Made by a program: the position numbers and the translations under genes
In this document: positions 1,762 to 55,442 of the stretch, one piece after another
Position numbering within the stretch: position 1 is the first letter of the stretch
How the letters are laid out: each line of letters opens with the position of its first letter
Assembly (NCBI GenBank): GCA_964106915.2
Contig: OZ066915.1
Source of the DNA: Podarcis gaigeae
Lineage: Eukaryota
DNA: 64,000 nt
Strand: one strand, 5' to 3'
The notes under the pieces: generated by a model
The model's input: the letters and a program-made list of their open reading frames with translations, nothing else
Told to the model about the DNA's origin: nothing
Database searches by the model: none

Positions 1762-1940
1762 GGGATTCAATCTTATGCCCACTTACCTGGGAGTAGGTAC
1801 CACTGAACTTAGTGGGGCTTACTTCTGAGTAGTCCTGCTTAGAATTGCACTGTAATGCTGCAATCCTATACTTGCAGAAGGAGCAAACCTTGCCGACTTC
1901 AATAGGACTTACTTCTGATCAGAGTGTATAGAATTGTGCT
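1762..1940. mobile_element. Two adjacent copies of a ~90-bp palindromic interspersed element
   Basis: Both follow the pattern GCTGCAATCCTAT..CTTACCTGGGAGTAAG.CCCACTGAA..CAGTGGG.CTTACTTCTGAGTA..ATAGGATTGCAGC, which recurs through the window. Confidence 0.6.
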
Positions 1941-2847: not shown

Positions 2848-3515
2848 ATTGGGGCCCTTTTAATATACTGCATCACGGCAAATGTAGTAAACAGATCTGC
2901 TCGGTGTTCTTCCCCCGGAGATAGAAGCCTCCTTATGCATTTTTAAGTTAATTAACCCACTAGAATTGACTCCTGCTATCAATCCACAGCTCCGTATCTT
3001 AGCAAGATCAGCCCGTTTAAATGAGATACCGCTAAGCAATTTATGAAATGAAAAGCAGCTCAAGACAAGGCAGATAAATGAAGGGGACGCCAGGCCGTGG
3101 GATAAACCTGCTGTTTAAGAAATGCAAACCCACCCCCCACTTCCTTTAAAACACACACACACACACATTGCATTTCTTACAAAAGGCTGGATGGATTCAT
3201 TCCTCCGGCCTTATTTATTTTGCAATTTCCACCGAAGTTTAAAGCCAGTGTTAATTTCCCGAAGCATGAAATGTGCAAATTTTCTCGAGTTTTCGTCTTT
3301 GCTGTTTTTTCCCGTTTTCCCTGTCGCAAATGTGCCACAATAAACGGAATTGTAAAAACCCCAATTTTAATTAAACCTATATGTCATTGAAATAGGAATT
3401 GTAAATGGCCTTGCATTCATTCAATAAATAAATAAATAAATAAATAAATAAATACCGGACATCTTTTGCTTATTTACTACTACTACTATTCTCCTCCTTA
3501 CTCAGGAAGCACACC

Positions 3516-3531
3516 TAAATAAATAAATAAA

Positions 3532-3585
<54 letters not shown>
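3516..3585. repeat. Compound (AAAT)n(AAGC)n microsatellite
   Basis: Read directly from the sequence. Confidence 0.95.

Positions 3586-3891: not shown

Positions 3892-3932
<41 letters not shown>
3892..3932. repeat. (TA)n microsatellite abutting the Penelope-like insertion
   Basis: Read directly from the sequence. Confidence 0.95.
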
Positions 3933-3935
<3 letters not shown>

Positions 3936-3941
3936 ATAAGT

Positions 3942-4330
3942 CTTTCGTAGATTTTCACGGGTACAGGAATGCAGGTTTTGGTGTCCTCGGGTGTCTTCCC
4001 GTGTAAAAGTTGGGGTGTCTAGGCGACGTTTCGACGAGGTCTCACTCGTCATCTTCAAAGATGACGATGACGAGTGAGACCTCGTCGAAACGTCGCCTAG
4101 ACACCCCAACTTTTACACGGGAAGACACCCGAGGACACCAAAACCTGCATTCCTGTACCCGTGAAAATCTACGAAAGCAAATATCTTACCTCTACGGGGA
4201 GGAAACCTTCCAGCTGACAAGAACCTACGAGAAACTAGAAGTGAAGATGACGAGTGAGACCTCGTCGAAACGTCGCCTAGACACCCCAACTTTTACACGG
4301 GAAGACACCCGAGGACACCAAAACCTGCAT
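3942..4330 (+). mobile_element. Penelope-like retroelement remnant: inverted plus tandem pLTR copies with hammerhead-like core and ORF 5' fragment
   Basis: Three copies of one unit: 3942-4057 inverted, 4058-4241 direct, 4242-4330 direct. The unit contains TGAAGA-T-GACGAG-tgagac-CTCGTC-GAAACGTC. The middle copy continues into RENLRKQISYLYGEETFQLTRTYEKLEVK, which resembles Penelope/Poseidon ORF N-termini. Flanked by direct repeat ATACCTATAAGTC (3930-3942 and 4329-4341). Confidence 0.8.
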
Positions 4331-7124
4331 ACCTATAAGTCATATATATACACAAACTATATTTTAATGAGGTATATCTTCTGAAGAACCGGTCACTAGG
4401 ATGAGAACCACTCTGGACACCAACTCTTGCAACCAACTCCAGGAACTTGAAGTTTCTTGCTTTAAAATGTGATTTCATCCAGGGTTCCCTAACCTTATTT
4501 TGCCTCCAACTATTTAAAGTGACCCCCTTCTCTCCCAACTCCCCGTTTCTAGCAATGGCCATTCCTTTGGATTCGAGGGCTTCCCAGGCACATAGGCACT
4601 ATATGTGAAGTTCATTCTTTTCTGTCTAGACACTAATTGCGAGCCAGTTTGTCTCTTTTGCCTTGACCTTGGACTTCGGACTGATTTGGTTGCTGTGGCC
4701 GAAGGACTTCGGGCAACGGTTGCTTCAAAAGCATGGAGTCCATTTGAGAAGGCAGAACGTTTCCAGGAGAAAACCAAACGTTTGCTAAAGACTTCATTTC
4801 TGAAAGCCATTTTCTAGACAGGGTTCTTTGTTGGGAGTTTTGGCGGAATTGTCTTAGTTTCCACTTGGACCATGGCAGTTTGATGACGGGAAGATCTAAG
4901 GAGTTTGGAGGCAGCAAATGCTGGTGCAAATAGAGACATTGCCATTTGAGGATTAAAAATAATAATGTATTTATTTGGGGAAAATTCATACTGAGAACTC
5001 CAAACGTGATAGGCATGTTCCCAAACAATGGGCAAATGATGATGATGATTCTAACTGGTGAATTGATGTTTATTTAACACATACATTATACTACATGCAT
5101 TGATGCTCTTATGTTTTAGAGCAAGTGGACTTTCACCTGCCTTTATAATCACATATAAAGTTGTTTGTATTGAAGTTCTCAACTGAAAAGAACAACTTAG
5201 GGTAGGTAGAGTTGGGTGAGAGTTCCATAAGATTTTTGGCTTATCTTGACCACTACTGAGGCTTGGACTGCAACGGGATTTCATTGACTTCACTTGAACT
5301 GAAGCTTACCGACCCTTCTTTGAAAGTACATATTGCTTGAAAGTATTGAACTCGGTAAGACTTCTTTTTCCGCGTAAGCACGCACAGCACTGGCCTGTAA
5401 GCTGTGTGCGGGACGGAAGTCTGAACTATTAATTCTTTGCTCTAGCTTCATTATCCTCATGTCTGGATGTACTGATTTGTCAAACTTATATTTTGTAATG
5501 TGGGGATAGGGGGGGAGTGGAAGGAGCCTGTCCTCCTGATGATCTCCAGTTAAATTTCACATTATTTCAAAAGCATCGATCAGAATCTAATCAGGAACGG
5601 CCAGTGAGGGGATTCTGAATGTTGGGGACATGAGTCCCCGAGAAAGGTAGGTGGGTGTGTGTGGGTGTGTGTGTGTGTGTGTGTATCGCAGCCATCAATC
5701 TCTGGCAGAGTAGTCTGCTATTCTTCTATTTCATCTATTTAATTATAACCCATCCATCTCCGATCCTGTTTACGTTGTATGATGTGAGTTGCATTTATTT
5801 TCTTTCACACACACAAATCAACACTGAGAACATTATATATATATCTCACACACACTTTCAATAGTAGGCATTGTTGCTGCGATATTTACTACTCAAGTAT
5901 TAAAAATTAATAACATAATATCATAATCACAACCAGTCCCTTTAAAACATCCCCAGTTGGTTGAGCACGAAAGATTAAGCATTATTGGGTTGGACTCATA
6001 CAAGGAACAGACCCCATAAAACGTCGAAACGTTTGGGAGGCATCTATTATATTCTTGCGAGGTGGCGGGCGGTTTTCTTTCTTCCTCTTTTATGCCCCAA
6101 AAGCAGCAGAATACTGATCATCAACAAAAAAGAAATAGAGAAATAACCCTCAAAGAAACAAAGGAGGAGTTAAAGATGTCATATATGTCCCTTCTGTGGG
6201 AAATTGTATTTTTAATAATTAGAATAAAAGCTAAAGCGATTATAATGAGCAGGTATGCGTTGATCTTTTGTTAAGCAAACAAGGAGTTAAAATTTCACAT
6301 ACCTTCTTCTGTGAAAAATAAGGTACTGTACTTTGGAAGAAAAACATACACACAATTCTTTTGAGCAAATGTATCCGCTGATTTATTTATTTATTTATTT
6401 ATTTAGCAAACAGATATTAATCTCCCCATTCACTCTTGAGACTGAAACAGACTGAGAGAAAATCAATTTCCTGGGCGATAAATGTCCAGATTCCTTACTT
6501 CCCGTAAGATCCAATATTTGATTCCCAGAAAGAGAAGATGCAGGGAGGGGGGAGGACGGAGAAGAAAGCCAGACAGACAGCAAGCGGATTTTAAGAATTA
6601 AAAAAAAAAAGCGCCCCCAGTCCCCACAGCTCCAGCTCACTTGCTCTAGTCCGTCATTTGGTCTTCTAGAATTTGAGCTTCTCTCATTTGTTGTGCGCCT
6701 CTTCAGATAGTCACTATTTTTTCTTTATCAGATAAACTGGCTGCTACCTGCCACCTCGCTTTATATCATATCCCTTGGTATTACAATTTCTAGGTTTTCC
6801 TCACCTTTCAGCCTCCCAGCTACCCTTCCCCTCTGCGGTTCATTGATATATAAGACACCAGGCTCCTGGTCAATTCTATATAGCGAGAGGGCTTTATATA
6901 TATATATAAATAATTGATTTTCTGAAGTATATTATTCCTATCATTAGTTTGATATTTAATCCTGAGGATATCTGAAGGCACAAAGATTCTAGCATGGCAT
7001 AGCCCAATCTCTTTGTGTCGGCCAAATTTTAAACACCCACATTCCCCTTATTTATTTCCCCACGCTCTTTACAATCAATGGGTGTCTCCCTTTGCCTTTA
7101 AGGATTTCTGTTTCTGTCGCGGAG

Positions 7125-7375: not shown

Positions 7376-8039
7376 ATGACGACTTCACTGATCTTGCATC
7401 CACGCTGGGCGGATACCTTCATGTACGTGTATGAGGAGAACCCGAATGAAAATAACCAGAATAAAATCCCAGCAATGGAAGGGCTAAGTGGGAACTGCCC
7501 AGCTACCCACTGCAGGGATTTAATCAGTCACCCGGTATTGGGTCGTCATTCCAGCACCATTGGGACTCACCAGGGTTCTGTCTACACGGATATACCTGCT
7601 CCAGATGCCGCCAGGCAGTGCCCCGCGCCACCAGCCTCCTCCAACGCCACCTTGGGCTATGGTTATCCTTTTGGAGGCAGCTACTACGGATGCCGATTGT
7701 CCCATTCCCACAACGTGAACTTACAACAGAAGCCTTGTTCGTACCACCCAGCTGAAAAATACCCCGAGCCCAGCGGCTCCCTCCCCAGCGAAGAACTATC
7801 CTCAAGGGCCAAAGAGTTTGCTTTTTACCCGAGCTTTGCCAGCTCCTACCAGGCGGTTCCTGGTTATTTGGACGTATCAGTGGTTCCAGGTATCAGTGGC
7901 CACCCAGAACCAAGACACGACGCGCTGCTTCCCATGGAAGGATACCAACACTGGGCTCTTTCTAATGGTTGGGACGGGCAGGTCTATTGCTCGAAGGAGC
8001 AATCACAGTCTACCCATCTCTGGAAATCACCTTTCCCAG
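7376..8039 (+). CDS. HOXC13: Homeobox protein Hox-C13, coding exon 1
   Basis: Translation MTTSLILHPRW...CRDLISHPVLGR...YGYPFGGSYYGCRL...SSRAKEFAFYPSFASSYQ...HLWKSPFP matches the vertebrate HOXC13 N-terminus. Phase-1 donor CCAG|GTAGGG at 8039/8040. Confidence 0.97.
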
Positions 8040-10748
8040 GTAGGGTGCTCTTGAGATCGACTTCTGCGCTTTTTTGCTCCGGCATGATCGCGTGCATATG
8101 CTATAATCTTTAACCGCCCAGGTAAAATAGGCTTTGGGACGCTTGCATGGGCACGTATGGGGAAGAAGGTGAAACAAAGCAGCCGGTTCTCATATCTAGA
8201 TACATACCTTGGAGCTCCAGGGTGCTTTCGCAGCCAGTTTGGCAACCGCACTCCTGTGTCTGTCTGTGTATGTGCGTGCGTGCCCCTCCTTCCCTCGCTG
8301 CGTTGGCTCCCTTACCTGGATCTCTATCTTTTTCTTTGATTTCCCCCCCCCCCGCGCTTTGAATATTTTAAATTAAATTTCAGAACATAGGAAGAGGTAG
8401 CATCTCTCTCCCTCTCCCCCCCTCTCTTTCTCTTTACTCAGAAAGGCTGGGCTTTTCGGAAAGGTACAGTAAATCATATTGCAATTACAGAAGTAGCTGT
8501 CAAGTGACATGAATCTTACAAATGAACCTTGTAAGACGAGTGGGGAGAGAACGAGAAATAAGGCGCTGCTTTTGCCTCTGGTTAGAAATCTGGAATGAGT
8601 GACAGCCTGCGAGTAACCCTGAAAGCTGCGAGTGCTCCGGGCTTATCTTATTGCCTTACCACTTAGAACAGGGAGGGAGGGAGCGAGAGGGAGAGGGAGA
8701 AAGATGAAAGACCAGCGGACGTCTCCTTTGCTCTTGGGGTCCCCACCCTGTAATCAATAAGCAGGCCCCTCTTAATGATTCGAATGGATGGATTGGAGCG
8801 AAGAGATTAAGATAAAGTAACCGGGGAAATAAATAAATAAGGGGGTGGGGTTAGGAGGAGAACACACACACACATTTATCTTAGGAATACTGGAGAGGGG
8901 ATACCCCATCGGATAAGACAGGGCTTGCCAACAATGCCTGCGCAGAGCGTTGCATGATGGGTTTTCCCTTTCCATGGGAAGAGGAATCAGAGTGTAGCGA
9001 GTGTGGGAGAGAAGGCCTATCTAGATCTTAACTGTGTTGCAGCCACATATTGGTGTCAGAGCTTGGAAGGGTCGATGGCAGGGGGAAAGTCCCCACCCCG
9101 CGCTTTTTTTTTTTTTAAAGAAGGCATTGAGACTTTTTTGCGGAAGCTGAAGGGGGGGTTGGCGAGTGGGGGAGAGAGGTCCATGGGATTCCTAGCATGA
9201 GATGACTTTCCCCATCTCGATTGCTTTCACCCGCCTGGCTAAAATGTAGTTGAGGTTGGAAGGACCTGCTCCGTGAGTTACTATTGCTCGGGAGGAAGGT
9301 GGAAGACGTTGTAAATGAACTTCTCTTCTCTTCCCACACCCCCCCCCAACCCGCCCCATTACCTTATTTATTCTGATCCCATTTTTGTATAGCCCTGAAA
9401 ATATTCTTAAGCCGCCATACACCAATTCCCAAACATTGAGAGGTCCGTGAGAGACAGCGCGCTCGCAGTAGTGTGAACCACAATTTTGTTTTGCTTTCCT
9501 ATCCTTGGGCCTTGATAGGATTCCCAGTAAACGTTGCTTATATAGACACTTCTTAGAAACAAAGGAAGAACAATCAAAAGCAGTTCAGGCTGTTTCTTTA
9601 TTTTATATCTGTTATGGAACAGACCGGCTGGGGTAACTGGAGAGATTTTCGCTTTGCTTCGATAGGGATCCCCTCTTTTTTCAGTGTTTATATTATTATT
9701 CCGCAAACCACTCTTACTTCGTATCGAGTCCTAAGCCTGCATCTTTAGATCAAGAAGCCATGGGAAGGGAAAGACTTGGTGCGCAAGTGATTACAGTTAA
9801 TCATGAAGAACTGGCATAGACAGCCTTAGCATAAGGGGCTATTAAGGAGAAGACTGAATGCATTAAGGGTGATGGGAATTCATTGATTCCCCGGCCGGTT
9901 CTGGACCAGGAGTAGGTAGGTAACATTTCTCCACAGCTTGGGTACCGTCAAAAAAGCCGCTGGGCCCTTTTATTTTATTTAATGCCTCTACCATAAGCGA
10001 CAAAGGATGTGGAAAGGCTAGTTCAAGGTCCCTCAAGCTTGCAGATGGTCCTTGTGTTGCATAGATCAATCAGTGCGGAGCATCTCTAGAACAACACAGA
10101 CGCGCGCACTCACACGCACACACGGCTGCTTACCCTCACCAAGTCCCCTACCCGGATCCTACAAGCTAGCATAATTAATGAGGTCGCCTAGGCTATCAGA
10201 GGACCTGTCTTTTAAAACGACAGGTTAAAATTGACCGGATGCTTAGAAGGGGAGTGAAGAGCTGAAGGTTAGATTCTGTCTCCAATTTTTACTAATTTGG
10301 GAGCTAACGTTAAGGGTGCTGTGCTTGCGAAATGCCTGGTCCGTGACTTGGTCTCCTTCTTTATATCTGTCCTGGACAAATATCGCCTGGAATAGTAGCA
10401 GTCCCCCCCCCCCCGACCCTATGCTAATATATTAATACTTTGCTCAGCCAGCCAGCCAGCCCATCCGAGTCCCAGCACCTCCCGCTCTTTCTTTCCTTCG
10501 GTCTTTCCTCTTCACATTTCCCCCTCTTCCTCTAATTTATATCCTTTTCCCCACACGCATACAAACTCCTTTTCCTTATTTTTCTCTCTGTTCTCTCCAT
10601 AATGTCTGGCACAGACATTGTTCAGTTAGTTTACCAGATGCTGTTTAATGTAACATACACCCTCTCTCTCTCTCTCTTTCTCTCTCTCTCCTTCCACGGT
10701 CTCTCTCTCCTGCTTTTCCCCCCTTTCCTGTTCTCCTCATCTTTACAG

Positions 10749-15756: not shown

Positions 15757-16070
15757 AGCTGATTTATTCATGTCTACTCAGAAGTAAGACTCACTGAGTT
15801 CACTGGGACTCACTCCTAGGTAAGCGTGTCTACCACTGCAGACTCGGGTTTTCTTCTTAAAACTGGTGCCCACTTCATTCTGCAAATTATTTAAAGGGAA
15901 ATTAGTCCCCTAAAACCTTCCAAAATAAATGATCTTTTGAATGAAGAACTGGGAGTTCAGACCCATTGACTGAAGGAATAAGCAACCCAATTCTATGTGT
16001 GCTTACTCGGAAGCAAATCCCCAGTGAATTTCCATGTGGCTCACTCCGAACCTTGCAAAGGATTGCAGCC
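15757..16070. mobile_element. Two ~90-bp palindromic element copies (15757-15842, 15981-16070)
   Basis: CATGTCTACTCAGAAGTAAGACTCACTGAGTTCACTGGGACTCACTCC and GCTTACTCGGAAGCAAATCCCCAGTGAATTTCCATGTGGCTCACTCC...AGGATTGCAGCC share the family pattern. Confidence 0.55.
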
Positions 16071-31400: not shown

Positions 31401-31702
31401 ATCAAGAGTAATTGAGATCTATGGGAAGTTGCAAGACAACGGGGCCCTGATCCTTTAAACATTCACCGATTCCTCTAATATTCACACTGTTCCCCTTAAG
31501 AATCCGGCCCAAATTTATTTAAATGCTAATAATGGCGGCTATGGATGCCTCGAGGTATAGATAGGTAACTCTTGATTCCCCTAGCACAGAAAACTCTATG
31601 TGCGTTCTTTTCCTTGCAATAATTCAAGCCTAAGGTGCTTATCTGGAAGCAAGTTTCGCTGAGGGCTAGTCCCTGGTACAAACCTCGCTGCGGCCCTTAA
31701 GA

Positions 31703-32010
31703 GTTCAATTCTCTACATGCCTACTCAGAAGTAAGCCCCATTAAGTTCAATGGAATTAACTCGCAGCTAAATTTGTGTAGCGTTATAGCCTAGCAGGCGC
31801 TAGGCAAGCTGTTACCATGGCAACCTCACCTTGCTCACCTTTAATAACACTGACCTACCGTACAAGGTTGTTGTAGCGATTGAAGTGCTCAGAACACTCA
31901 AAAGAGCTAGCAGCAGCAGTAATACCGTCTCTATGCACACTTTACTAGGGAGTAACCTGCATTCAACTAAGTGGGGCTTACTTCTGTGTAAGGACGCAGA
32001 GGACCTTGGT
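31703..32010. mobile_element. Two ~90-bp palindromic element copies (31703-31790, 31930-32010)
   Basis: CCTACTCAGAAGTAAGCCCCATTAAGTTCAATGG and CTATGCACACTTTACTAGGGAGTAACC...GTGGGGCTTACTTCTG share the family pattern. Confidence 0.55.
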
Positions 32011-34586
32011 GTATCTCTGTAGGACTTTCTTTCAAGTGCATCTGTTTAGGGGTGCCCATCTCACTGAATCACTCCCCACCGTGCTTTCAAGAGCTGTCAT
32101 TCACCACCATTAAAATCAATTGGAGACTTGCCCTTGGCTTCAAAAGGATATAGATTTCACTCACAAGGTTTCTCTTTTATTTTTTCACTCTCATTTCTTC
32201 GAAAGAAGTACCCACACAAATATCATTTCTGCCTCTTTTACTGGAGGTGTGCACGGAACGTTGGTTGTCATATGAGGACTGTTAAGGGCTCCACAGAAGT
32301 GAATAGGGTTCTGGATCATCTCCAACAAGCCTAGATTGTATATAGAGGCATAAATTGTGTAGAAAATTGTGGATCGGTTCACCTTGAAGAGGGAATGCTT
32401 GGTTCCAAAGATGCTTAAACACTCACCCAAATAGATAAAACTTATTTATTACCAGTGAGTGGCTAGGACAAATTGTTGCTCGCAGTAAAAGTGCGTATTG
32501 TTCCTCAGCTTGCTTGCTGCTTCTGCTGCTGCTTTTTTTTATATAGGGGTGTATTTCATAGCTATGGCTTTAAAATGAATTCATTAAGAAGCGGAAAGTA
32601 TAACCCCATCTCCTGAATTGCAAGGAATAATTCTGCCTTCAAGAGAATAAGGGGGGGAAACCCCAACAACAGGCACACACCCAGTTAAGTTGTATTTCAA
32701 CAGTGCAAATTATTCCAAAATTATGGGAAATATGCAAAAGCGCATAGGCTTGATCCAAAAACAAGTAATGCTTTATCTTTATCATTATTAGTATTATTTT
32801 ACTATAGGTGTTCTCTATACTGAAAGGGTTGTGAGCAAATGTTTTATGTGTTATCGAGGGGAAATAGAGAATTTACCCTCTGGGGCTGAACATATGCACA
32901 TAATAGTCATTGTTCAGCGCAGAAAGATGGTGCAAAGAGTAATTATATATTATAGATCTGAAGCGATGCATGCTAGTCCCAAGAAAACCCCAACGATGTG
33001 TTTTGCTTGCTCGCCAGTATCAGGTAAGCCCCACACGCATCACCACCACAACTACCACCCAAAATTCAGGATCGGTTTAACAGGATGTCCTTTTCCTTCT
33101 TACTAAACCACCACCAACAGCAGCAGCAGCAGCAGCAGCATGTCGCATTATGCATAGTTATTCCAATGGAACTTGTTCCCAAGTAAGAAGGCAGCTTTTA
33201 CGATCCGGATAACAACGCTAACAAGTATTTGACACATTTCCTTCAAGTTACCAAAGTAGGGAAATGTTAGCGTGGTTTTTTTTTAAAAAAAAGTGCAAGC
33301 CAGTGATTAATTTTTTTATTATTATTTTAAATTATTAAAACGCCATTGTCTCGTGCTAATGTGCAAATGTGGAATACTGGTTGGCCTGCCTCCGCTTTCT
33401 GTCTGTCCGTCTTATCCATCTGTCTGTCTCTCTCTCTAATCCCTGTATCTATCTTATATTTCGGTAAGCTTAGCCTCTGCAGTGACTGCCACATATCTAC
33501 TTACTGAGAATTCATAATCGGTGCTATTTTGAAGCATATATAAGACAGTTGAAATACTGTTTCTCGCGGTTTCCCGGGCGCACGGGGTGTCTTCCCTCTT
33601 GACAAATGGTCCCTCGCTTGGGGGTCAGCAAGCTTTGGTCTTGCACTTCACGGAGGATCTGCGGCAAAGCTATCTGTCTGTCTCTTCCCTTGCCTTGGCT
33701 TTCATCCCGTCAACGGCTGCGGCCAAAAATGTTTTGCAAACATTCCCATGCTCTTCTGGTATTTTGGAAAGACCCCGCAGACTGAAGAGAAAGCAAAAAA
33801 GATAACATAACAAATCTCGTCGTGAAGGGCATTAAAAAAAATGAAAATCCATTATATAGGGTCATTCGCTCGTGTATGACACTAGGCGCCATTTGCCACG
33901 TACAAACTGTGTCTATTTTCGAAAAAGGGTAGGTTTTGTTACGAATGCATCTTCTTTAGGGACACCGAATAGCAAAGGGCGATCAGAAGATTGGGGCCAG
34001 GCGTGTTCCGGAGGAAATATTATAGCCCTCATTATTAATCTCTCCAACCTTTTTAAACGGGTAGCTTAAAAATGAATACTTACATAACATTATGTAAACA
34101 TTAATATGGCACCCTATATTAATGCCACCCTAGGTACGCTATCATATAGGTGCAATGTGGGAGTAGTAGAGTTAGTTATACAAAGGGGCATGATCTACTC
34201 AAAATTAAAAGCTCTTTGAGTTAATCAGGTGTTTAACTCTGATTACCCTACTGTAATCAACAGGACTTTAAAGTGGTTACCTTTTCTTGGATTCTTCATC
34301 ATGATAATGATAGATCCTATCCAGTCAGAGTTAAACACACTTTAAGTCCCATTGTTTCCCATTTGAGAGGGCTAACACATCAGAAGAGCTTAAAACCACA
34401 TCAGAGAGGACTCTTAGATGCTGCTTAATGAAAGCAACATCTACTTTCCCCTCATTTCTGATTTTATTTCAATACTAGTCCTCAGCCACACCAGAAGAGA
34501 TATCCCTGGAGGGGTAAATAAATACCTTAACAGCACTGATGTGGGCATACCTCTCTTCAGCAAATGCAAACACAGAGGATCAAATC

Positions 34587-35015
34587 CTGTAGTGATGTAT
34601 GGAAGTGAGAGCTGGACCATAAAGAAGGCTGATCGCCGAAGAATTGATGCTTTTGAATTATGGTGCTGGAGGAGACTCTTGAGAGTCCCATGGACTGCAA
34701 GAAGATCAAACCTCTCCATACTGAAGGAAATCAACCCTGAGTGCTCATTGGAAGGACAGATTGTGAAGCTGAGGCTCCAGTATTTTGGCCACCTCATGAG
34801 AAGAGAAGACTCCCTGGAGAAGACCCTGATGTTGGGAAAGATGGAGGGCACAAGGAGAAGGGGACGGCAGAGGACGAGATGGTTGGATAGTGTTTTCGAG
34901 GTTACCAGCATGAGTTTGACCAAACTGCGGGAGGCAGTGGAGGACAGAGGTGCCTGGCGTTCTCTGGTCCATGGGGTCACGAAGAGTCGGACACGACTAA
35001 ATGACTAAACAACAA
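34587..35015 (+). mobile_element. BovB (RTE-clade) LINE, 5'-truncated 3' end
   Basis: Uninterrupted translation VVMYGSESWTIKKADRRRIDAFELWCWRRLLRVPWTARRSNLSILKEINPECSLEG...WRSLVHGVTKSRTRLND is the BovB RT C-terminus. It ends in a (CAA)n tail, with candidate TSD CAAATC at 34581-34586 and 35016-35021. Confidence 0.95.
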
Positions 35016-55305: not shown

Positions 55306-55442
55306 NNNNNNNNNNNNNNNNNNNNNNNNNNNNNNNNNNNNNNNNNNNNNNNNNNNNNNNNNNNNNNNNNNNNNNNNNNNNNNNNNNNNNNNNNNNNNNN
55401 NNNNNNNNNNNNNNNNNNNNNNNNNNNNNNNNNNNNNNNNNN
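55306..55442. other. Assembly gap (137 N)
   Basis: Run of N characters. Confidence 0.99.

What the first reader, a model, noticed from the sequence alone, without database searches (positions are those of the whole stretch)
3930..4341. Young Penelope-like insertion with three hammerhead-ribozyme-like pLTR copies 3 kb upstream of HOXC13
Seen: three copies of one unit (one inverted, two direct with an exact 180-bp period), identical where they overlap apart from a 6-bp duplication, bracketed by the 13-bp direct repeat ATACCTATAAGTC. Each carries (T)GAAGA-T-GACGAG-tgagac-CTCGTC-GAAAC-GTC, i.e. a UGANGA box, a perfect 6-bp stem II, GAAA, a palindromic ACGU in place of stem III, and a GUC triplet. 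Known: Penelope-like elements carry minimal type I hammerheads with a palindromic stem III thought to act as dimers, and they insert as partial tandem or inverted pLTR arrays. Inference: this is a recent PLE retrotransposition product with CpGs still undecayed. All three copies begin within 2 nt of the same point, just after the C of the CUGANGA core (TGAAGA, AAGA, TGAAGA). That suggests reverse transcription repeatedly stalls or switches template at the ribozyme fold, leaving the copies catalytically crippled.
Basis: partly seen in the sequence, partly recalled or inferred. Interest (0 to 1): 0.75.

Follow-up and report, generated by a model that had tools for sequence, protein, structure and literature searches.

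The report
Young Penelope insertion beside Hox13 gene
This is a recent, likely still polymorphic, 386-base insertion of a known kind of jumping gene (a Penelope-like retroelement) 3 kb before a Hox13 gene; its three short copies all begin inside the core of the element's self-cutting RNA motif, which likely marks the 5' end of the RNA that was copied.

Summary
Observation confirmed. The unit is the start of a Penelope/Poseidon-type ORF overlapping a minimal hammerhead: its 60 codons match a public protein at 77%, and 11 of 12 long homologues of that protein carry a reverse transcriptase domain. The two outer ends lie at ORF +83/84 and +110/111, at or near the family's two habitual 3' ends (+84/85 and +115-118, mostly running into (TA)n), which correspond to the internal RT start sites published for the anole element PAc. 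The family is abundant and homogeneous; the site looks empty in another sample of the same species and in a second species. The 180-bp period is a one-off jump into ORF +175/176, not a pLTR or retrozyme unit. 5' ends at -5..+1 recur at other loci (6 of 13 listed), so the clustering is real. A stall at the fold is the weaker reading: the stop lies past the helices, and PAc RT reads through its hammerhead in vitro. Run-off at the RNA's 5' end is more likely, but unproven. All three copies lack C3. A known kind of event with one open mechanistic lead.

The parts
3893..3932 (.). (TA)n tract next to the target site (its last letters overlap the TSD)
   Evidence: family ends run into (TA)n at other loci, table 7
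3930..3942 (+). Target site duplication, left copy (13 bp; 11 unambiguous)
   Evidence: flank contigs of runs X2 and X3 start to match at 4329 and 4331, table 8
3943..4057 (-). Copy 1: inverted terminal piece, -5 to +110/111 of the ORF's ATG (ATG at 4052), with a 26-28 nt tail beyond +83/84
4058..4066 (+). Head-to-head junction and 6-nt duplication: likely a first stop at -1/+1, realignment at +6, second stop at -3
   Evidence: sequence; a 12-nt duplication of the same kind at another locus in run X3, table 7; order of events inferred
4058..4242 (+). Copy 2: -3 to ORF +175/176 (ATG at 4067); first 58-59 codons of the PLE ORF
   Evidence: family ORF continues past 4242 in all 4 runs laid, table 7
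4242..4280 (+). Minimal hammerhead of copy 3: core from U4, stem II 4249-4266, GAAA-CG-UC, predicted cut after 4274; position 3 is G, from the ORF
   Evidence: same register of core and ATG as PAc (compared by eye)
4242..4330 (+). Copy 3: -5/-4 to +83/84 (ATG at 4247), tail-less end
   Evidence: modal family end at this place
4329..4341 (+). Target site duplication, right copy; its first 9 letters match element +83..+91 at 7 of 9
7376..8041 (+). Context only: first coding exon of a Hox13 gene (HOXC13 by recall); right boundary approximate

Best explanation
The insert holds three short copies of the hammerhead and ORF start of a Penelope/Poseidon-type retroelement between a 13-bp target duplication, and it likely arose in one event in which both nicked target strands primed reverse transcription inside the element's RNA and each cDNA ran off that RNA's 5' end at -5/-4 of the ATG. 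Shown: family identity, structure, both outer ends at or near the family's two habitual 3' ends, a TA-rich target, loss of C3 in all copies. Inferred: a staggered cut 13 bp apart; the bottom strand primed at +83/84 (helped by 7 of 9 matching letters), ran to -5/-4, jumped to ORF +175/176 of a template, ran to -1/+1, slipped back 6 nt and ended at -3; the top strand primed at +110/111 on a separate template and ran to -5/-4; the two cDNA ends were joined head to head with at most one shared letter. The RNA 5' end is most likely a transcription start inside the hammerhead core. The insert itself is a dead product: no RT, no endonuclease, no intact ribozyme. Identity as a PLE insertion about 0.97; dual priming about 0.8; run-off at an RNA end about 0.55.
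For: ORF N-terminus 77% identical over 60 aa to P0002; 255 relatives of P0002 at E<=0.001; 11 of 12 long ones scanned have RVT_1 above cut-off. 3' ends in four runs: 48 listed contig ends at +118 and 21 at +84/85, mostly followed by TA-repeat letters (table 7); PAc RT starts at ORF +111-118 and at a second site one tail length away, extends both strands and is predicted to be a dimer. Copy 1 lacks copy 2's duplication and is longer than copy 3, so it is not a fold-back copy of either. 5' ends: four stops at -5..+1 in this locus, and 6 of 13 listed 5' ends at other loci in three DNA runs (binomial p 6.5e-4 against an even spread over 64 places; 3e-3 if one possibly shared locus is dropped). PAc products shorten with the template's 5' end from -126 and ignore ribozyme mutants. 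D. virilis Penelope starts transcription inside its pLTR.
Against: No start-site data: contigs cannot show an RNA start, and the RNA label of run X16 is a guess. Two X16 contigs run on upstream of -5, so longer molecules exist. 7 of 13 listed 5' ends lie elsewhere (+23 to +59); 87 loose ends and 1122 pieces were not shown; my reference stopped at -5, so ends further upstream could not be scored. A start at -4/-5 leaves a 4-5 nt leader and the ATG lacks the +4 G of TISU (9 of 12 match), so such an RNA would be a poor mRNA. PAc's consensus has at least 126-145 nt of UTR before its ATG. No listed contig spans either inner junction (only the copy 2/3 junction was in the stretch laid). The family's own RT and endonuclease were not seen.
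Confidence: 0.58

Rival explanations
1. One reading: the RNA continues upstream, but RT is blocked at C3 by helix I or by protein bound there (a template boundary as in telomerase, the sister enzyme), then realigns or jumps.
For: Ends stop exactly before C3 and the 5' strand of helix I. PAc's hammerhead needs the element's protein to cut, so protein contacts this RNA. In a dimeric hammerhead the 5' strand of helix I would still be paired to the partner motif (inference). Short duplications at the boundary occur here and in X3.
Against: PAc RT passes its hammerhead in vitro and ribozyme mutants do not change product size (another family). Helix I of this family is 2 bp in register by the two X16 contigs; stems II and III lie 3' of the stop and are already unwound.
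Confidence: 0.2
2. A canonical inverted pLTR + pLTR-ORF-pLTR insertion that lost ORF +177 onward and the 3' UTR by a microhomology-guided deletion or jump; the boundary at -5 is inherited from master copies already truncated there inside (TA)n.
For: That layout, with 8-10 bp TSDs and a derivative with an internal microhomology deletion, is described in Adineta vaga. The family ORF has GAAGA two letters past the junction, the same five letters as -4..+1 (table 7). Many other boundary ends are preceded by TA letters.
Against: The junction keeps only 1 shared letter and drops the two letters before GAAGA, which plain microhomology joining would keep. Neither inner junction here has TA letters. 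It does not explain the stops of copies 1 and 2 at the same place.
Confidence: 0.13
3. A 180-bp non-LTR retrozyme unit copied from a circular or tandem RNA.
For: Exact 180-bp period, in frame; reptile retrozyme consensus length averages 176 bp in a 2026 preprint. The ORF letters before copy 3 would pair with the 3' strand of helix I at 4 of 6 positions.
Against: No unit has a complete hammerhead, which that paper requires in two consecutive units. In X2 and X3 the depth over 4207-4225 equals the ORF contig alone (2118.2 and 653.9), so the junction is not a high-copy form there (rare forms are dropped from contigs). The junction is not at the cleavage site.
Confidence: 0.04
4. Assembly artefact at a (TA)n tract.
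For: Perfect inverted repeat beside a microsatellite; no listed contig spans the whole stretch; the X1 contig at the right junction has only 21 letters on the element side, under the tool's 31-letter bar.
Against: Exact TSD, ends at the family's habitual sites, a tail on one arm only, and an X1 contig that runs 4308-4700 without a difference.
Confidence: 0.02

Closest known systems
PAc, Poseidon element of Anolis carolinensis (Frangieh et al. 2024, PMC11167929; parts 1-3 of 4 of the text read, figures not seen)
   Same: ORF starts at stem II with the A of ATG as core A9; cut site at +28 here, +29 there; internal RT starts near +84 and +111-118; AT-rich target; both strands extended; short helix I; ORF letters near +124..+135 shared (by eye).
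   Different: A different family (N-terminus MTSETSS). The text I read describes no pile-up of 5' ends at the core; its working template has a 126-nt UTR. Here the copies lack C3.
Canonical EN+ PLE insertion architecture (Arkhipova et al. 2013, PMC3846280; Craig et al. 2021, PMC8557442; passages read)
   Same: Two direct repeats plus an adjacent inverted one, TSD, pLTR that includes the first codons, tail on one arm, palindrome at the inverted junction, microsatellite bias.
   Different: Miniature: 176 nt of ORF only; repeat of about 88-122 nt instead of about 200; 13-bp TSD; tail 26-28 nt against 30-40. Those authors read the inversion as self-priming on an antisense template; here the inverted copy has its own RT-start end.
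Minimal hammerheads of metazoan PLEs (Cervera and de la Pena 2014, PMC4209133; parts 1-2 of 4 read)
   Same: No helix III beyond a palindrome, long helix II, unpaired base 5' of stem II, short helix I; reported there from snakes and turtle.
   Different: All three copies are cut at or inside the CUGANGA box.
Non-LTR retrozymes (PMC7229834, passages; bioRxiv 10.64898/2026.07.22.740005, parts 1-3 of 5)
   Same: Short tandem with a type I hammerhead motif, PLE-derived.
   Different: Incomplete ribozymes, unit made of coding sequence, junction not shown at other loci.
PLE accumulation in squamate Hox clusters (Di-Poi et al. 2009, not held; seen only as cited in PMC3899998 and PMC2997562)
   Same: A PLE next to a posterior Hox gene in a cluster that also holds other repeats.
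   Different: This copy lies just outside the 5' end of the Hox13 gene and appears not to be fixed.

Membership tests
EN+ Penelope-like element | Single ORF with RT and C-terminal GIY-YIG endonuclease | tested here: inconclusive
   The locus holds 58-59 codons only. Of 12 long homologues of the matching N-terminus, 11 hit RVT_1 above cut-off and 1 hit GIY-YIG below cut-off (E 0.002); 3 of 3 read by eye end in a GIY-YIG-like segment. This family's own RT and EN were not retrieved.
EN+ Penelope-like element | Terminal repeat that includes the ORF start, in direct and inverted copies | tested here: met
   definition
EN+ Penelope-like element | Optional 30-40 nt tail on one arm, set by two RT start sites | tested here: met
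   Family ends at +84/85 and +115-118, 31-34 nt apart; here 26-28 nt, on the left arm only
EN+ Penelope-like element | TSD and AT-rich or microsatellite target | tested here: met
   13-bp TSD next to (TA)20; empty site inferred from runs X2 and X3
Penelope/Poseidon clade | RT phylogeny; no Zn-finger-like linker between RT and EN | not tested
   No RT of this family in hand and no tree built; assignment rests on N-terminal and hammerhead likeness to PAc by eye
Minimal type I hammerhead (these copies) | C3 of CUGANGA and a 5' strand of helix I | tested here: not met
   Position 3 is U (copy 1), absent (copy 2), G (copy 3)
Minimal type I hammerhead (parent family) | Complete core and helix I in full-length copies | tested here: inconclusive
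   Two contigs of run X16 (another organism) agree on four letters at -9..-6 and put C at position 3, but each has other core changes; helix I 2 bp in register (table 7). Rfam: 0 hammerhead models among 16 matches.
Minimal type I hammerhead | Self-cleavage as dimer or with protein | not testable with these tools
   needs in vitro assay
Non-LTR retrozyme | [quoted passage not shown] | tested here: not met
   criterion; sequence

The most novel reading that the evidence does not exclude
Penelope elements make a retrovirus-like strong-stop cDNA. The transcript would start in the hammerhead core, RT would prime 85-118 nt from that 5' end, run off, and normally transfer to the RNA's 3' end, where hammerhead cleavage at +28 of the downstream repeat would leave the same -5..+28 sequence as a landing pad. 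One pass would then give pLTR-ORF-pLTR, give the ribozyme a job, and explain why short -5..+84/+118 pieces far outnumber ORF-bearing copies. This locus would be a frozen mis-transfer to ORF +176. Against it: no RNA-seq reads end at the PAc cut site and pLTR-less Penelope copies exist. My one search for it (three of four terms required) listed two unrelated papers; subscription journals are not covered.
Probability: 0.15. Interest if true: 0.75.

Novelty: new member of a known kind. Interest (0 to 1): 0.36.

Why it matters
As an object it is ordinary for a squamate-type genome: one of many short Penelope pieces, and PLEs in reptile Hox clusters are known. Its value is as a clean record. One 386-bp insert shows both published RT start sites used on opposite strands in vivo, which fits the dimer and two-strand activity seen for PAc in vitro, and it shows four stops at one boundary. 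How pLTRs, inversions and the hammerhead fit into PLE transposition is an open question in the papers read; a fixed template boundary in the ribozyme core is testable with one assembly and one 5' RACE. A polymorphic 116-bp perfect inverted repeat 3 kb from a Hox13 start codon could also serve as a marker or as a natural test of TE effects on Hox expression, but I have no evidence of any effect.

Tried and rejected
No whole genome is held for this window, so no genome-wide count. Exact 26-nt pattern: 0 matches in metagenome and viral contigs. Related-locus scans with P0002 gave 6 and 2 loci matching only 26-27 residues at 50-52%; I did not open them and treat them as chance. Rfam: only hairpin-driven miRNA-type matches below gathering score. 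No RNA holder listed at half of the words or more; X16 was laid but its RNA label is a guess. My first idea, a perfect 6-nt microhomology between the ORF and the core at the copy 2/3 junction, was refuted: the family ORF reads differently after 4242. TISU/YY1-type start: 9 of 12 match but no +4 G, and PAc fits worse by eye; kept only as a weak lead. Protected-fragment idea (RNA trimmed to -5..+176): PAc's 3' limit of +172 maps to +169 here, but its 5' limit is +20, so it does not predict -5. Splice-acceptor idea (a CAG lies at -10..-8 in one X16 contig, where D. virilis has its intron end): splicing would give a constant upstream exon, not ragged ends. ESM Atlas did not name the Hox paralogue. 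Supplement 2 of PMC11167929 gave figure labels only and supplement 3 no hits; Fig. S2 there, which I could not see, may already show the 5' coverage edge. Di-Poi 2009 not held. Age from zero substitutions: under 3-9 million years for assumed rates of 3e-9 to 1e-9 per site and year, a loose bound.

Full report
Observation. The window holds, between two exact copies of a 13-mer (3930-3942, 4329-4341), a 386-bp insert of three copies of one sequence: inverted at 3943-4057, direct at 4058-4242 and 4242-4330. The arms of the inverted repeat are 116 nt at 99% and the direct copies are 180 apart. There is no other copy in the 64 kb. The copies differ only by a 6-nt duplication in copy 2. CpG observed/expected is 1.14 against 0.60 and 0.42 in the flanks. 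A (TA)20 tract abuts the left TSD. A Hox13 first exon starts 3035 bp to the right; a Hox11-type exon and a homeodomain follow further on. The names HOXC13, C12 and C11 and the reading of the host as a squamate reptile are recalled or inferred, from no call.

What the unit is. An ATG at the start of stem II (4067, 4247, and 4052 on the minus strand) opens a frame that runs through the whole 180 bp. One protein among 7 candidates matched it, P0002, at 46 of 60 residues, and continues where the window jumps back. P0002 has 255 relatives at E<=0.001. I scanned 12 of the long ones: 11 carry RVT_1 above the Pfam cut-off, 1 has a weak GIY-YIG hit, 1 has neither. Three read by eye have the RT-then-endonuclease layout. 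The published anole element PAc has the same arrangement: ORF starting at stem II, cut site 26 nt after the start codon, RT starting inside the ORF at +111-118 and at a second site one tail length away, AT-rich targets, both strands cut and extended, predicted dimer (PMC11167929). By eye its printed template aligns with this unit at an offset of 1-3 nt. So the unit is the hammerhead plus ORF start of a Penelope/Poseidon-type element; only -5..+84/+118 is terminal repeat.

Family and age. I laid four runs (4 of 23 listed) on 4150-4700. In all four the ORF continues past 4242 with the codons that P0002 predicts. The single ORF contig has 186, 162 and 59 times the depth of the unique flank contig in X1, X2 and X3, with no differences from the window, which I read as a young family with of the order of 100 ORF-bearing copies. 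Summed depth over the hammerhead part is a further 110-917 times higher; the tool warns that this sum is no copy number and overlapping contigs inflate it, so I take only that short pieces far outnumber ORF copies. Of the listed loose ends behind the match, 48 contigs end at +118 and 21 at +84/85, mostly going on as TA repeats, 2 end at +122 the same way, and the other rows are family continuations. Copy 3 ends at +83/84 and copy 1 at +110/111. X1 has a contig that runs 4308-4700 with no difference (X1 may be the source animal, so it is not independent). In X2 (same species label, other sample and study) and X3 (other species) the flank contig starts to match at 4329 and 4331 and has 21 and 29 further letters that do not align; these letters were not printed, so the empty site is inferred. 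The insertion is therefore likely polymorphic within the species.

The 5' boundary. In this locus there are four stops: copy 1 at -5, copy 3 at -5, copy 2 at -3 after an inferred first stop at -1/+1. At other loci the three DNA runs list 13 scoreable 5' ends: 6 at -5..+1 (4242 twice, 4245 three times, 4247) and 7 at +23..+59 (tables 5, 5c, 7). I dropped one row at the edge of the reference, six rows that are family continuity, and two X16 rows that run on upstream. Against an even spread over 64 places p is 6.5e-4, or 3e-3 with one possibly shared locus removed. Limits: the list is the tool's selection (87 loose ends not shown) and the reference began at -5. One X3 end carries a 12-nt duplication of the same kind as copy 2's. 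The T at -5 can come from the neighbour in three of the four cases where it is seen, so the limit is -5 or -4. The two X16 contigs agree on four upstream letters and give C at position 3, so longer copies keep it; helix I is then 2 bp in register. An earlier unchecked note of this scan (e1-7858061) reports a similar pile 8-12 bases upstream of the core in another genome; it is a lead, not support, and its ends keep the core whereas these cut into it.

Mechanism. Both outer ends are RT-start ends facing outward, and copy 1 cannot be a fold-back copy of copy 2 (no duplication) or of copy 3 (too long). I infer two primings from nicks 13 bp apart on two templates. At the right end the target matches element +83..+91 at 7 of 9 letters (0.2% of 9-mers in the window do, 1.7% of those starting with AT), a hint that pairing helped choose the site; the left end shows 1 of 9. 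The right-hand cDNA stopped at -5/-4 and resumed at ORF +175/176 with one shared letter; my first guess of a 6-nt microhomology was wrong. Why stops fall at the core is the open step. A stall at the fold fits poorly, since stems III and II lie 3' of the stop, helix I is short, and PAc products track the template's 5' end from -126 whatever the ribozyme's state. Run-off at an RNA 5' end fits the ragged ends, duplications and jumps, and D. virilis Penelope does start transcription inside its pLTR (PMC2377424). Against it, the leader would be 4-5 nt in a weak context and no start site was measured. I put run-off at about 0.55, a helix- or protein-held boundary at 0.2, and deletion or inheritance from truncated masters at 0.13.

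Comparison and novelty. Inverted plus direct pLTRs with a TSD and a one-sided tail are the textbook PLE layout (PMC3846280; PMC8557442); minimal hammerheads in PLE repeats, snakes included, are described (PMC4209133); PLEs in anole Hox clusters are reported second-hand (PMC3899998; PMC2997562). The retrozyme criterion of two complete ribozymes is not met. I found no description of 5' ends piling in the hammerhead core in the passages read or in searches; figures, the PAc Fig. S2 and subscription papers were not visible, and the Lunse 2017 dimer paper is recalled only. Other papers opened: PMC13725137, PMC7229834, PMC3177215 (passages). Verdict: a new member of a known kind, interest 0.36; the strong-stop reading (probability 0.15) would deserve 0.75.

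Noticed in passing
window 34418-35008 (+): A 196-codon frame that by recall looks like the RT C-terminus of a BovB/RTE LINE, between the Hox12 and Hox11 genes; no Pfam hit at E<=0.1.
   Followed up: partly
window 1783-1851 (+), 15774-15824 (-), 31702-31770 (-): Three copies of an older 50-70 bp repeat at 80-84% identity, two of them inside the Hox cluster; unidentified, perhaps a SINE relic.
   Followed up: no
window 3943-4177: The 116-bp inverted repeat folds as one near-perfect hairpin (whole insert -265.7 kcal/mol); any read-through transcript would be long double-stranded RNA near a Hox13 promoter.
   Followed up: no
window 4295 and 4303 (run X16): A>G in 12 and 11 contigs of the probable RNA run and in none of the three DNA runs; could be A-to-I editing or a subfamily difference, since the organism differs.
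   Followed up: no
window 4270 and 4277 (run X1): Other loci invert head to head at the short palindromes ACGT (hammerhead stem III) and CTAG (helix I), a second route to inverted PLE ends.
   Followed up: no
window 4235-4238 with 4277-4280: ORF letters before copy 3 would pair with the 3' strand of helix I at 4 of 6 positions in exact register; chance or a guide for the jump is undecided.
   Followed up: partly
window 3420-3452 and 3517-3584: (AAAT)n and (AAGC)n microsatellites 350-500 bp left of the insert.
   Followed up: no
window 55306-55442: Assembly gap of 137 N.
   Followed up: no
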